This document shows, one piece after another, positions 25,003-40,705 of a DNA stretch of 64,000 nucleotides. The stretch's first letter is position 1. Each line of letters opens with the position of its first letter. Below the pieces are notes generated by a model. It was not told where the DNA came from. It searched no databases and saw only the letters and a program-made list of their open reading frames with translations. The stretch comes from Eledone cirrhosa (Eukaryota), in the NCBI GenBank assembly GCA_964016885.1, contig OZ024743.1, forward strand, positions 293,880,001-293,944,000, given 5' to 3'. A program made the position numbers and the translations under genes.

Positions 25003-25162
25003 ATAATTGTTTCTACTTTTGGCACAAGGCCAGCAATTACCCACTGAATTACTGGTACTTTATTTTATCGACCCCGTAAGGAAGAAAGGCAAAGTTAACT
25101 TCGGCTGGATTTGAACCCAGAACGTAAAGGGCCACAACTCTATGCTGTAAAGCTTGGCGTTT
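25003..25162 (-). mobile_element. Main tRNA-SINE (young subfamily)
   Basis: Reverse complement of ..GTTCAAATCC..AACTTTGCCTTTC..GGGGTCGATAAAATAAAGTACCAG..GGCCTTGTGCCAAAAGTAGAAACAATTAT. Confidence 0.85.
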
Positions 25163-25885
25163 GACGCTCTACCGATACTGATATATATAAAGTGTGTGTG
25201 TATAGAGTCACACTCATATATCAGCATACACATACACTCATGCACACTATCACACATGCACACAAGTGGATTCATGAACACAAACCTACTCAATACGTTG
25301 TATAGGGTAATTATATCTATTAAAGTAAGTTGATAAATATGGATACTTGTGTATGTGTGTATGTGGCGAAGCACTTTTCTTTTGAATATGTCATATTGAA
25401 AACATATGTACACCTAAGCTTTATCGTTACTTTATTAGTTTTGTATAAACTTCCTAGACTCTTCTACGTTTCTAATCTTCTGAATGGAGGGGTTGCTAGC
25501 GATATAGTTATTATTGTTGCTTTCATTTTGTTGTTGTTTAGTCCACCCCAGCCTTGATTGAGCACACTTACGATAAAAGAAGGTTCAGTTGTGATCATTC
25601 TTTCATTTTGTATATCAATGTAACCTTCTCTTATTTTAAAGGCTTTTGTGTGTAATACAAAGGATATTTGGGAATTGTTTATGGTGAATGCAAATGGCGT
25701 TGTTACTATATGGATGGATTTGTAATGTTCACCTTTATTTGCCTGTAAATCTTGTTCTAGGCATGAAAAAGACAGGATAATCACAGCTTGAATGCTTTCA
25801 ATATTCACACATGTTAAATAAGGTAGATAAGAGTGCGGTTGTCGTTATTATTTCTCATCATTTCTCATATTTATATGAAGGTAGA

Positions 25886-26102
25886 GGGCGGTGGAATGGC
25901 AATATCGGTACAGCGTCGGACAACATGCTTTGCTGGATAAAGTTACAGCCCTTTACTTTCTGAGGTCAAATCCCGCCGATGTTAGCTTAGCTATTCACCC
26001 TTACGGGTCGATAACATAAAGAAACAATAACGCACTGAGGTCGGTTTAATCGACTTTCCCTTTCCCCCAAATTGTTGGCCTTGTGCTTAAATCATAAATC
26101 AT
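25886..26102 (+). mobile_element. Main tRNA-SINE (older variant)
   Basis: A box TGGCAATATCGG, B box GAGGTCAAATCC, central GGGTCGATAA domain and GGCCTTGTGC tail. Confidence 0.8.
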
Positions 26103-26113
26103 ATTGATATGAA

Positions 26114-26400
26114 TGTGTGGCCGAGTGGTTAGAGACCGTAACATTGTAAATTCGATTCCCGTTCATGCGTTGTGTCCATGAGCAAGACACTTTATTTCAA
26201 GTTGATCCTCTCAATTCAGCTGCAAAAAAGTAGTTGTACTACCAATTTAAAACGCCAGTTTTATCACACTGTTTCATGTTGAATTCCCTTCTTTACTACG
26301 TTAAGGGTGTGGAAGGCTCATGCATTTGCGCGTTAAATTCACGGGCAGAATGTTCTGTTGTTAACATCAGCGGTACGACGCATCGTTGGAACCGACGGTA
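26114..26400 (+). mobile_element. tRNA-derived SINE of a different (CORE-like) family
   Basis: GTGGCCGAGTGGTTAG A box, TTCGATTCCC B box and TTGTGTCCATGAGCAAGACACTT core. Confidence 0.6.
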
Positions 26401-38468: not shown

Positions 38469-38715
38469 GTTTTTTTCAAAGAAATATTTTGTTTGATAAA
38501 TAACAAGTGTAAATTTTTGTCTCAAAGCCCCAATATTTTTGAATGTCCTTTCCAGAAAGTAATATATGTGAACTTCTAAACAGTTAACAACAAAAACTTT
38601 CCATAAGTGGCAATTTGAAACAACTGAAAACAACAAATCTTTGCGGAGCTCACGGTAACACGATTTCCTACGTAGGTCACCAATAATAATAATAATATTA
38701 ATAATAATGATAATA

Positions 38716-39800
38716 TTAAAGAAATGGATAGGAAGACTAGGAAGCTATTGATATCTACAACATGTTCCACAAGAGGAGTGATGTCGATAGACTCTACTTA
38801 AAGAGATCTGAAGGTGGAAGAGGTCCTATCAGCATAGAGGACTGTGTTCAGATGGAGAAAAACAACCTGCACGAATATGTGACTGACAGTAGGGAGTCAA
38901 TGCTCAAAATTGTACTGAAGGAGAAGACAATAGACCAGGGGATGTCCAAGCAGGAAATAACAACAAGGAGGAAGAGCAAACTTCATGAAAAATTCCTTCA
39001 TAGCACCTTCTTTAAAAAAACGGAATTTAGAGATCCACAGACATGGAACTGATTAAAAAGAGGAGACCTTAAAAAAGCTACAGAAGGAATGCTACGCAAG
39101 AGCAAGCCCTCATAACGAAGTGGGTGAAACACCATATTTACAAGGAGGAGGCTAGCTCACTCTGTAGGATCTGTGGAGAGAGAAAGAGGAAACTGTGGCT
39201 CACATTGTATCCGAGTGTAAACACCTAGCCCATACTCACTATAAAGGCTGGGAACATGATGTGATAAGCAGGGTGTTCCACTGGCATCTATGCAAAGTAA
39301 GAAATTTACCACATTCTGAGAAGTGGCATGAGCACATCCAGAGTTAGTGATAGAAAACGATCAGGTGAAGGTGCTATGGGATTTTAGGATACAGACGGAT
39401 AAGAAACTGGTACACAATAGGCCTGACCTGGTGGTTTTGGACAAGGAAGAAAGATTGCGCCTGATTGTAGATATAGCCTGCTCATTTGACACGAGAGTGC
39501 AAGAAAAGAAGAGCGAGAAAATTACAGTGGGAGTTAAAAAGGATTTGGAACTGCCATGAAATCAAGGTTGTACCGATTGTCATAAGCGCACTAGGTACTA
39601 TCTCAAAGAGTTTCCAAGTATAGTTAAAGAAGATTAGTCCAGCCCAGCTCCGCTTTTTGGAACGCTTCAAAAGGCCTGCTTGCTGGGAACAGGAAGAACC
39701 CTCCGATATGTCCTGAATATCTGAGGCTGCAGGTAGTGGCTTGATATTCATTTCAATAAACTTTCCAGTTAAATAACATCAATGTCTGAGACTCAAAGAA
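38716..39800 (+). mobile_element. R4/Dong-clade (RLE) retrotransposon, 5'-truncated and decayed
   Basis: Motifs MDRKTRKLL, DVDRLYLKRSEGGRG, QEQAL, CRICGE..ETVAHIVSEC and LWDFRIQTDKKLVHNRPDLVVLDKE..IVDIA (PD..D RLE); (TAA)n on both sides. Confidence 0.85.
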
Positions 39801-39819
39801 CAATAATAATAATGATAAT

Positions 39820-40705
39820 AATAATTGTTTCTACTTTTGGCAAAAGGCCAGCAATTATCCAGTACATAACTGGTATTTTATTTTATCGACCCCATAAGGA
39901 TGAAAGCAAAGTTTTCCTCGGCGGGATTACAACTCAGTCCGTAAAGGGACGGAGCTGTGCTGCAAATCATGGCGTCCGACCCGCTACCAATACTGCAAAT
40001 CCATCGGGTAAGGCGGAAAGGCAAAGTTAAACTCGGCGGATTTGAACTCATAATAATGATTATTATTTTATACGGTGGATTGGCAGTATTGGTAGAGGGT
40101 CGGGCGCGATGCTTTGAAGCATAGAGTTACCTCCCTTTATGATTTGAGTTCAAATCCCGCCGAGGTTAACTTTGCCTTTCATCCTTACGGGATCGATAAA
40201 ATAAAGTACCAGTAATACACTGGGACAATTGCTGGCCTGGTGCCAAAAGTAGAAACAATTATTATTATAATTATAGGGCGGTGGATTGGTAGTATCGGTA
40301 GAGGGTCGGATGCCATGCATGCTTTAACGCATAGAGTTACGGCCCTGGGCCATTCTCAGTTCAAATCCCGCCGAGGTTAACTTTGCTTTTCATCCTTACG
40401 GGGTCGATAAAATAAAGTACCAGTAATGCACTGGGTAATTGCTGGCCTTGTGCCATAAGTAGAAACAATTATTATTATAATTATGTTCATGGATTGGCAG
40501 TATCGTTAGAGCGTCGGACAAAGTGTCATATGATATTTGCTTACAGCTTTTTACTTTCTTAGTCCAAATTCCACCGATGAGAACTTTATCTTTCATATTT
40601 ATGATATAAACAAAATTAAGTACTAGTCAAGCACTGGGGTCAATACAACCGAGTTACCACTATCCCCCAAATGTCTAGCTATGCGTAAATAGGAAACAGT
40701 TATAA
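39820..40705. mobile_element. Cluster of about five main-family SINEs (minus 39820-40050; plus 40072-40262, 40276-40475, 40490-40705)
   Basis: Repeated A box, B box, central domain and tail motifs joined by (ATT)n. Confidence 0.85.

What the first reader, a model, noticed from the sequence alone, without database searches (positions are those of the whole stretch)
25003..40475. The dominant SINE mimics the LINE 3' end: a candidate LINE-SINE partnership
SINE copies end in UGGC-CUUGU-GCC(A)...AGAAACAAUUAUU (e.g. 25006-25032 minus, 28029-28057, 40443-40475). The LINE end is stem-CUUGU-stem-AAUAAA-GAAAUC-AUUAUU, so loop, GAAA and ATT tail match while the stem sequence differs. Both clear SINE TSDs (16-17 bp: 26911/28054 and 36780/36980) start with ATTAT. 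Inference: the Tx1-like ORF2 mobilises this tRNA-SINE via structural mimicry. The SINE's ATT tails would in turn seed new targets for both elements.
Basis: partly seen in the sequence, partly recalled or inferred. Interest (0 to 1): 0.85.

Follow-up and report, generated by a model that had tools for sequence, protein, structure and literature searches.

The report
Octopod SINE carries Tx1 retrotransposon tail
The commonest short jumping element in this octopus-like genome ends in a worn copy of the last 25 letters of the neighbouring Tx1-type retrotransposons and lands at the same ATT repeats, so it is likely copied by their enzyme, a pairing rarely reported for this relative of human L1.

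Summary
Observation confirmed: the SINE ends, the LINE ends and both TSDs (16 and 17 bp) are where stated. Five L1/Tx1-group elements in the window end in a 4-bp stem, a CTTGT loop, AATAAA-GAAA and (ATT)n. Of 18 element ends tested from this genome, only the six Tx1 ends match the SINE tail; an older, longer SINE form matches best (21 of 26 columns). This points to shared descent with drift, not mimicry. The ATT tail alone is not diagnostic, because a young CR1 also ends in ATT. That CR1 has a different hairpin and no long TSDs (0 of 36), whereas the SINE has about 18-bp TSDs starting ATTAT after a pyrimidine. Tx1 is the likely mobiliser (about 0.75). Against: the SINE hairpin is only 3-4 bp and weakly predicted, the young form's match is faint, Tx1 copies sit in longer ATT runs, and Tx1 TSDs are mostly unreadable. 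Target seeding comes mostly from TSD duplication; SINE ends are not enriched as Tx1 targets. No experiment was done. The scan noted this pairing before, in this genome and in another. I found no paper reporting it.

The parts
25003..25180 (-). SINE, short (dominant) form
   Evidence: blastn 86.6% to the 36796 copy; tail read
25888..26110 (+). SINE, older long form (about 215-220 nt, extra C-rich segment before the tail)
26911..28069 (+). Composite SINE: TSD 26911-26926, 45-bp head repeated about 22 times (26925-27909), one body ending at 28053, TSD 28054-28069
28030..28053 (+). SINE tail: 3-bp stem, CTTGT loop at 28033-28037, spacer with GAAA, then ATT
   Evidence: sequence; match to Tx1 ends
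32490..32597 (-). 5'-truncated SINE directly behind the ATT run of element E1
32667..38681 (-). Tx1-type element E1, reading frames broken, SINE inserted in the ORF1 region; 3' hairpin at 32679-32691
36780..36996 (+). Young short SINE (36794-36979) with 17-bp TSD, inside E1; A-box-like motif at 36805, B-box-like motif at 36868
   Evidence: box consensus from own knowledge
39820..40006 (-). SINE, short form, tail to tail with a Dong/R4-like fragment at a shared AAT/ATT run
40073..40700 (+). Three SINEs head to tail (two short, one old long form), spaced by re-used ATTAT target copies
41759..47745 (-). Tx1-type element E2, frames broken; 3' hairpin at 41771-41783
47791..53612 (-). Tx1-type element E3, very young family; open ORF1 frame 51493-53421 and open ORF2 frame 48044-51496 (APE endonuclease, RT, zf-RVT); 3' hairpin at 47804-47816
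53640..59666 (-). Tx1-type element E4; open ORF1 frame 57357-59501 and open ORF2 frame 53902-57489; 3' hairpin at 53652-53664
59709..64000 (-). Tx1-type element E5, ORF2 in two frames, runs off the window; 3' hairpin at 59721-59733

Best explanation
The SINE's last 25 bases match the 3' end of the ATT-repeat-targeting Tx1-type LINEs of this genome, were likely inherited from them, and likely let the Tx1 ORF2 protein copy the SINE RNA in trans. Proposed steps. (1) An ancestral SINE picked up the last 25-40 nt of an E3-like Tx1 (inferred from alignments). (2) The SINE is transcribed by Pol III from A/B-box-like motifs (inferred). (3) Tx1 ORF2p binds the end motif: a small stem, a CUUGU loop, a 12-nt spacer with GAAA, then AUU repeats (predicted). 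(4) The endonuclease nicks the bottom strand at Y|ATTATT (the logo is shown; the enzyme is inferred); the freed AATAAT-3' end pairs with the RNA's AUU repeats and primes reverse transcription; a second nick about 18 bp away makes the TSD (TSD shown). (5) The tail then drifted: it lost one stem pair and the AATAAA signal that a Pol III RNA does not need, and kept the loop, closing pair, spacing and GAAA (sequence shown, reason inferred). (6) Every insertion duplicates its own target, and both copies are re-used, which builds the SINE and Tx1 pile-ups seen here.
For: Tail match, tail repeats excluded: six Tx1 ends scored 17-33 against four SINE tail types, 12 non-Tx1 ends -3 to 13; old long form against an E2-type end 33, reached by 0 of 1114 background and 0 of 2000 shuffles. 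An RNase H-bearing LINE ends in a different motif and (CAA)n. A model trained on 20 Tx1 ends only gave long-form SINE tails 10.8-22.7 bits; the top 21 of 40 hits in nine loci are, by eye, all Tx1-like ends or SINE tails (loci chosen for holding long forms). The Tx1 stem covaries: 87.5% of cells paired, 9 double changes, 7 of 500 shuffles as high. SINE TSDs of 12 bp or more in 18 of 33 random copies against 8 of 195 mismatched pairs; CR1 0 of 36. 24 of 28 intact-headed SINEs have TSDs, median 17.5 bp; 18 of 24 start ATTAT; the base before is T or C in 23 of 24. Three readable Tx1 TSDs are 15-20 bp and start ATT (by eye). Both are young: 20 of 33 best-hit SINEs lie within 0.6% of their majority sequence and 32 of 32 E3 copies are 98.6-99.9% identical to the window copy. 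Tx1 is the largest of four LINE groups measured, 7.0% of an 800-kb sample.
Against: In five full-length SINE RNAs the proposed hairpin has pair probability 0.10 or less (0.43-0.66 in the last 45 nt alone), against 0.6-0.97 for E2-E4 and about 0.1 for E1. The dominant short form scores only 10-13 bits with the Tx1 model (E 2-10), like CR1 ends (10.2), and only one of the window's SINE tails appears among 12 hits. Without anchoring at the 3' end, internal windows of CR1 and RTE-like elements score 25-29 against the short tail, as high as Tx1 ends. Tx1 copies sit in longer ATT runs (median 4 units after the end against 2 for the SINE; 27 of 28 full-length E3 copies have 4 or more units directly upstream, by eye). 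The Tx1 TSD test is uninformative: 17 of 31 against 89 of 179 in the control. CR1 is equally young, so age overlap does not discriminate. The LINE survey is a sample; a low-copy family with a better tail could be missed. Covariation rests on few lineages.
Confidence: 0.75

Rival explanations
1. Tx1 mobilises the SINE, but recognition is relaxed: only the AUU repeats pairing with the nicked target matter, and the hairpin is an inherited relic.
For: Weak predicted folding of the SINE hairpin; the most successful, youngest form has the most eroded tail; older Tx1-like ends have other loops.
Against: Loop, closing pair, stem-to-tail spacing and GAAA are the same in long and short SINE forms while the bases between them changed; the Tx1 stems covary; the terminal 30 nt of both elements stand out in contig depth in another organism (weak).
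Confidence: 0.3
2. The tail came from Tx1 long ago, but today's short SINE is copied by another, unsampled ATT-tailed LINE.
For: SINE sites have shorter ATT runs than Tx1 sites; only 150 of 118,945 RT candidates were scored; the RTE loci were not read; O. vulgaris has 47 recently active LINE families (PMC13282606).
Against: No other repeated ATT-preceding end with this motif turned up in 800 kb of evenly spaced sample or in 1.5 Mb of loci; the one abundant ATT-tailed rival, CR1, lacks long TSDs.
Confidence: 0.12
3. The young CR1, which also ends in (ATT)n, mobilises the SINE.
For: Same tail repeat and orientation; copies about 99% identical; CR1 and L2 are the usual partners of mollusc SINEs (PMC4758252, PMC4824008).
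Against: The CR1 end scores 4-13 against SINE tails, which is background level; 0 of 36 CR1 copies have a TSD of 12 bp or more.
Confidence: 0.05
4. True convergent mimicry or chance: the SINE tail arose independently of Tx1.
For: The short-form match is only 16 of 25 bases and AT-rich; a similar hairpin also sits in Tx1 5' UTRs, so the motif can arise more than once.
Against: The older form is closer to Tx1 than the young one (21 of 26 columns), the opposite of what converging mimicry predicts, and weak likeness to E3-type ends extends 20 nt further upstream (mean score 10.9 against 2.5 +/- 4.3 shuffled; none for E2 or E1/E4 types).
Confidence: 0.08

Closest known systems
Stringent SINE-LINE pairs with a shared 3' tail (58 pairs, mostly CR1 and RTE clades; eel pair shown by experiment; Ohshima 2013, PMC3747384, passages and section 1.4 read)
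   Same: SINE ends in the LINE's 3' sequence and the same simple repeat; small stem-loop with variable stem and conserved loop.
   Different: The shared part is only 25-40 nt and eroded; the partner is of the L1/Tx1 group, which that review names as the exception (3 SINEs for over 800 LINEs); no experiment here.
Maize ZmSINE2/3 with LINE1-1_ZM, and Chlamydomonas SINEX-3_CR with L1-1_CR (Ohshima 2012, PMC3472496, passages read)
   Same: L1-group partner, conserved 3' hairpin with compensatory stem changes and conserved loop and flank.
   Different: Those are in plants and a green alga, and the algal pair ends in poly(A); here an animal, an (ATT)n tail and a microsatellite target.
Crocodilian SINEU with Tx1-Mar (Kojima 2015, PMC4494074, passages read)
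   Same: A SINE assigned to a Tx1-clade mobiliser through shared target preference and age.
   Different: SINEU has snRNA heads and poly(A) tails, and for SINEU-1 no LINE matched the 3' half; here the tail itself matches Tx1.
Kibi, Koshi and crocodilian (TTCC)n/(TTTC)n-targeting Tx1 families (as described in PMC4494074)
   Same: Tx1-type architecture with insertion into a microsatellite.
   Different: The target is (ATT)n; relationship by tree not tested.
Octopus CORE-SINEs OR1/OR2 (named in PMC4824008 and PMC4758252) and the 'tRNA-Core' repeats that dominate octopus SINEs (PMC8967140)
   Same: Probably the same family or a sister: about 190-220 nt, very abundant. This identification is recalled; no reference sequence was compared.
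   Different: No partner LINE is named for them in the passages I saw; the original papers and Repbase were not available.

Membership tests
SINE-LINE pair with shared 3' tail | SINE 3' end homologous to the LINE 3' end | tested here: met
   anchored alignment; Tx1-only model; strong for the old form, modest for the young form
SINE-LINE pair with shared 3' tail | Same terminal repeat in the same orientation | tested here: met
   (ATT)n in both; also in CR1, so not diagnostic
SINE-LINE pair with shared 3' tail | Same target site and TSD length | tested here: inconclusive
   SINE Y|ATTATT, about 18 bp; Tx1 in (ATT)n, TSD readable in three cases, bulk test at control level
SINE-LINE pair with shared 3' tail | Conserved stem-loop in the LINE | tested here: met
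   covariation; predicted in 3 of 4 window elements
SINE-LINE pair with shared 3' tail | Stem-loop formed by the SINE RNA | tested here: inconclusive
   3-4 bp possible; pair probability 0.10 or less in full RNA, 0.43-0.66 locally
SINE-LINE pair with shared 3' tail | Overlapping activity in time | tested here: met
   near-identical young copies of both; CR1 is as young
SINE-LINE pair with shared 3' tail | Tail-dependent trans-mobilisation | not testable with these tools
   needs a cell assay
L1/Tx1 group of non-LTR retrotransposons | ORF1 plus ORF2 with APE endonuclease, RT and C-terminal zf-RVT; closest solved relative L1 ORF2p | tested here: met
   Pfam; best PDB hit human L1 ORF2p, E 1e-56, against 5e-22 for R2; catalytic motifs present
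Tx1 clade proper | RT tree placement with named Tx1 families | not tested
   no named Tx1 reference among 84 homologues or their clusters; the label rests on architecture, target preference and recall
Tx1 clade proper | Target-sequence preference | tested here: met
   27 of 28 full-length E3 copies directly follow 4 or more ATT units (by eye)
tRNA-derived SINE | Head alignable to a tRNA, with A and B boxes | tested here: inconclusive
   box-like motifs present; no ARAGORN gene; no tRNA among 6 weak Rfam hits
CORE-SINE (octopus OR1/OR2) | CORE central domain | not tested
   resemblance recalled only; no reference sequence available in the tools

The most novel reading that the evidence does not exclude
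An animal L1/Tx1-group ORF2 protein picks its RNA by a 13-nt hairpin, a fixed 12-nt spacer and AUU repeats instead of poly(A), perhaps through a related hairpin at both ends of its own RNA, and this stringent route drives the roughly half-million-copy SINE that dominates octopod genomes.
Probability: 0.35. Interest if true: 0.7.

Novelty: new variant of a known kind. Interest (0 to 1): 0.5.

Why it matters
It would name the engine behind the main SINE of octopus-like genomes (about 2.5% of the sampled DNA). It would also give an animal case for the idea that L1-group elements first recognised a specific 3' RNA structure and only later relaxed to poly(A) (Ohshima 2012). Open ORF2 frames in a very young family, a minimal hairpin and natural stem variants make that idea directly testable. 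The Y|ATTATT target with about 18-bp TSDs may also be of use to people who engineer site-preferring retrotransposons.

Tried and rejected
CR1 as partner: rejected on tail and TSD. RTE-like ((GAT)n), Dong/R4-like ((AAT)n, opposite orientation), other RLE, BovB-like, Penelope-like and RNase H-bearing ((CAA)n) elements: tails do not match; these clade names are my reading of the protein motifs, not database calls. Bulk Tx1 TSD test: no better than control because the flanks are pure ATT. A hairpin 'element' found behind Tx1 tails, first taken for a better donor, proved to be the 5' UTR of the next Tx1. 3' transduction as the reason for shared E3 downstream flanks: no shared unique sequence; the flanks are other repeats. 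PF09004 search: nothing rang, also not in controls, so uninformative. DNA search with the E4 end: no match, the words being too common. PF20049 found RTE candidates but no loci were cut, so their ends are unread. tRNA search: nothing. Expression: no RNA holder listed. Run X7 held almost nothing of either element. The sequence-only Tx1 model found only the last 13 nt of long-form tails; its bit scores are not directly comparable with the structured model, so I do not count the difference as proof of structure. The first upstream comparison had two misfiled sequences and was redone. Homologue and Atlas searches gave no family name.
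Full report
Setting. The window is G000:C4:293,880,001-293,944,000 of a 3.0-Gb genome. I take it for an octopod from recall of the SINE family; this was not tested. It holds five minus-strand LINEs separated by (ATT)n runs: E1 32667-38681, E2 41759-47745, E3 47791-53612, E4 53640-59666 and E5 from 59709 off the end. E3 and E4 have open ORF2 frames, 845 of 1137 residues identical, with APE endonuclease, RT and zf-RVT domains and the expected catalytic motifs. The closest solved relative is human L1 ORF2p (E 1e-56). 'Tx1' is my label from architecture and target preference; no named Tx1 reference came up among 84 homologues or nine clusters.

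Observation. The SINE is about 186 nt (short form) or 215-220 nt (older long form). In 80 evenly spaced 10-kb stretches it gave 138 segments and 19.8 kb, 103 of them best matched by the short form; scaled up, about half a million segments (inference). A- and B-box-like motifs are present, but neither ARAGORN nor Rfam showed a tRNA.

The LINE end. Tx1 ends from across the genome carry different 4-bp stems around the same loop. On 20 Tx1 ends (18 distinct) 87.5% of stem cells pair, 9 by double change; 7 of 500 shuffles reach the covariation score and no slid register does. With five SINE ends added, 0 of 500. Related sequences inflate such counts, and only two or three independent changes lie behind them. 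The hairpin is predicted at 0.6-0.97 in E2-E4 and about 0.1 in E1.

Does another LINE fit better? I collected ends from RT, zf-RVT and RNase H searches and from the 800-kb sample. A very young CR1 also ends in (ATT)n, so the tail repeat is not diagnostic. With tails left out, four SINE tail types scored 17-33 against six Tx1 ends and -3 to 13 against 12 other ends; 0-13 of 1114 background 25-mers reached the Tx1 scores, and the best of those include leftover SINE or Tx1 ends. The old long form aligns to an E2-type end at 21 of 26 columns, the young form to E2 at 16 of 25. For the commonest long tail the best window in each of E1-E4 is the 3' terminus; for the short tails it is so in only some, and internal windows of CR1 and RTE-like elements score as high. 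The young match therefore rests on its position at the very end. The SINE stem equals the E3-type stem less one C-G pair, and a weak likeness to E3-type ends runs 20 nt further upstream (4.5% of shuffles as high; none for other types). A covariance model trained on Tx1 alone gave young Tx1 ends 54-60 bits, long-form SINE tails 11-23, short-form tails 10-13 and CR1 ends 10 (the nine loci were picked for long forms; script classes were corrected by eye for two hits). This gradient argues for descent with drift and against convergent mimicry. The survey is a sample: 150 of 118,945 RT candidates were scored, and the RTE loci were not read.

Insertion signature. Of 33 full-length short SINEs in the sample, 18 have TSDs of 12 bp or more (control 8 of 195) and 14 of the 18 start ATTAT. 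Of 28 intact-headed copies from all loci, 24 have TSDs of 10 bp or more, median 17.5, and the base before is a pyrimidine in 23 of 24. CR1 shows none in 36 copies; the RTE-like family shows 3 of 13, no more than its control of 11 of 74. Tx1 copies lie in ATT runs, so the same test is blind (17 of 31 against 89 of 179). Three copies with unique bases in the target show 15-20-bp TSDs; one of them also has about four extra ATT units at its 5' end, which suggests that part of the upstream run belongs to the element (by eye). The longer runs around Tx1 remain a real difference from the SINE. The AATAAA right after the stem could place Tx1 RNA cleavage a few ATT units into the run and explain this (inference).

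Age. 20 of 33 best-hit SINEs lie within 0.6% of their majority sequence, while the bulk of the short form has a median of 6.5% (n = 49). At least 40 E3 ends are identical over 113 nt; 32 of 32 fetched E3 copies are 98.6-99.9% identical to the window copy and 28 are full length. CR1 is as young. Contigs of three other coded organisms hold both elements, and in one the last 30 or so bases of each stand out in depth over the sequence just upstream; contig depth is not copy number, so this is a hint only.

Seeding of targets. The SINE is followed by a median of 2 ATT units, and where a TSD is readable these units are its start. There are 15 head-to-tail pairs among 105 copies in the sample, about what the SINE-flanking share of 1284 ATTATT sites would give (my arithmetic). 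In 19 short-short pairs from all loci the upstream copy looks younger in 13 and the downstream in 4, so the upstream TSD is re-used at least as often as the tail. Of 34 young full-length Tx1 copies, 4 follow a SINE end and 11 a Tx1 end; among 63 runs of four or more ATT units in the sample, 9 follow a SINE and 7 a Tx1. SINE ends are used, but not beyond their share; Tx1 ends are enriched.

Structure in the SINE. The stem is 3 bp, or 4 in the commonest variant. Pair probability is 0.10 or less in five full-length copies and 0.43-0.66 in the last 45 nt of two. Whether ORF2p needs it is open.

Literature. Seven searches showed no paper that pairs an octopus SINE with Tx1. Seen: PMC13282606 (first third of the text and passages); passages of PMC4758252, PMC3472496, PMC4494074, PMC4824008, PMC3531059, PMC8967140 and PMC9115989; passages and section 1.4 of PMC3747384 ('octopus' does not occur in its held text). 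PMC7245038 was seen as a listing only. No supplements were opened; the pair tables and repeat libraries in them may bear on novelty. Ohshima and Okada 1994 and 2005, Kojima and Fujiwara 2004 and Repbase were not seen. Ohshima lists only three L1-clade SINE tails, from maize and a green alga; Kojima assigns SINEU to Tx1 by target alone. Two earlier notes of this scan reach the same pairing; they are not independent evidence, and my reading was set before I saw them.

Verdict. A real, probably stringent-type SINE-LINE pair with an unusual partner group. The kind of system is well known; the pairing seems unreported; the mechanism is inferred from sequence only. Interest 0.5.

Noticed in passing
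window 53430-53470 (-), 59450-59480 (-), 38510-38540 (-); L038:2500-2540, L190: Tx1 5' UTRs carry a second hairpin shortly before the ORF1 start codon in three of four lineages (loops CTTG[AT], TTTT, TTTGT). In the E1 family it matches the short SINE tail (score 29) as well as the 3' ends do. It may be a second ORF2p site, a translation control or a captured SINE end.
   Followed up: partly
window 26925-27909: A 45-bp SINE head repeated about 22 times at 95% identity in front of one SINE body, all inside one 16-bp TSD.
   Followed up: no
L271-L302; G000:C1:423.37-423.41 Mb: The young E3 family is mostly full length (28 of 32), unusual for an L1-group element, and forms tandem arrays with a 5.8-kb period.
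   Followed up: partly
L283 and L225: An E3 copy with a TSD of about 20 bp plus about four extra ATT units at its 5' junction, inserted in the upstream TSD of a SINE.
   Followed up: partly
window 38720-39810 (+): Broken Dong/R4-like fragment ending in (AAT)n; such elements often sit tail to tail with Tx1 or the SINE at one AAT/ATT run.
   Followed up: partly
L061-L090, L191-L210: Very young CR1 family (945-aa frame, about 4.9 kb, about 99% identity) with an (ATT)n tail, its own hairpin and no long TSD.
   Followed up: yes
L126, L159, L114: Young RTE-like family with a cysteine-rich insert after the RT, (GAT)n tail, inserting in (TA)n; 3.5% of the sample.
   Followed up: partly
L311-L330: RNase H-bearing LINE family ending in (CAA)n.
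   Followed up: partly
L215, L235: Two further Tx1 5'-end types lie behind E3 tails, so at least six lineages share the ATT target.
   Followed up: no
window 28370-30700: Long degenerate CAT and TAG trinucleotide arrays with a 47-bp higher-order unit.
   Followed up: no
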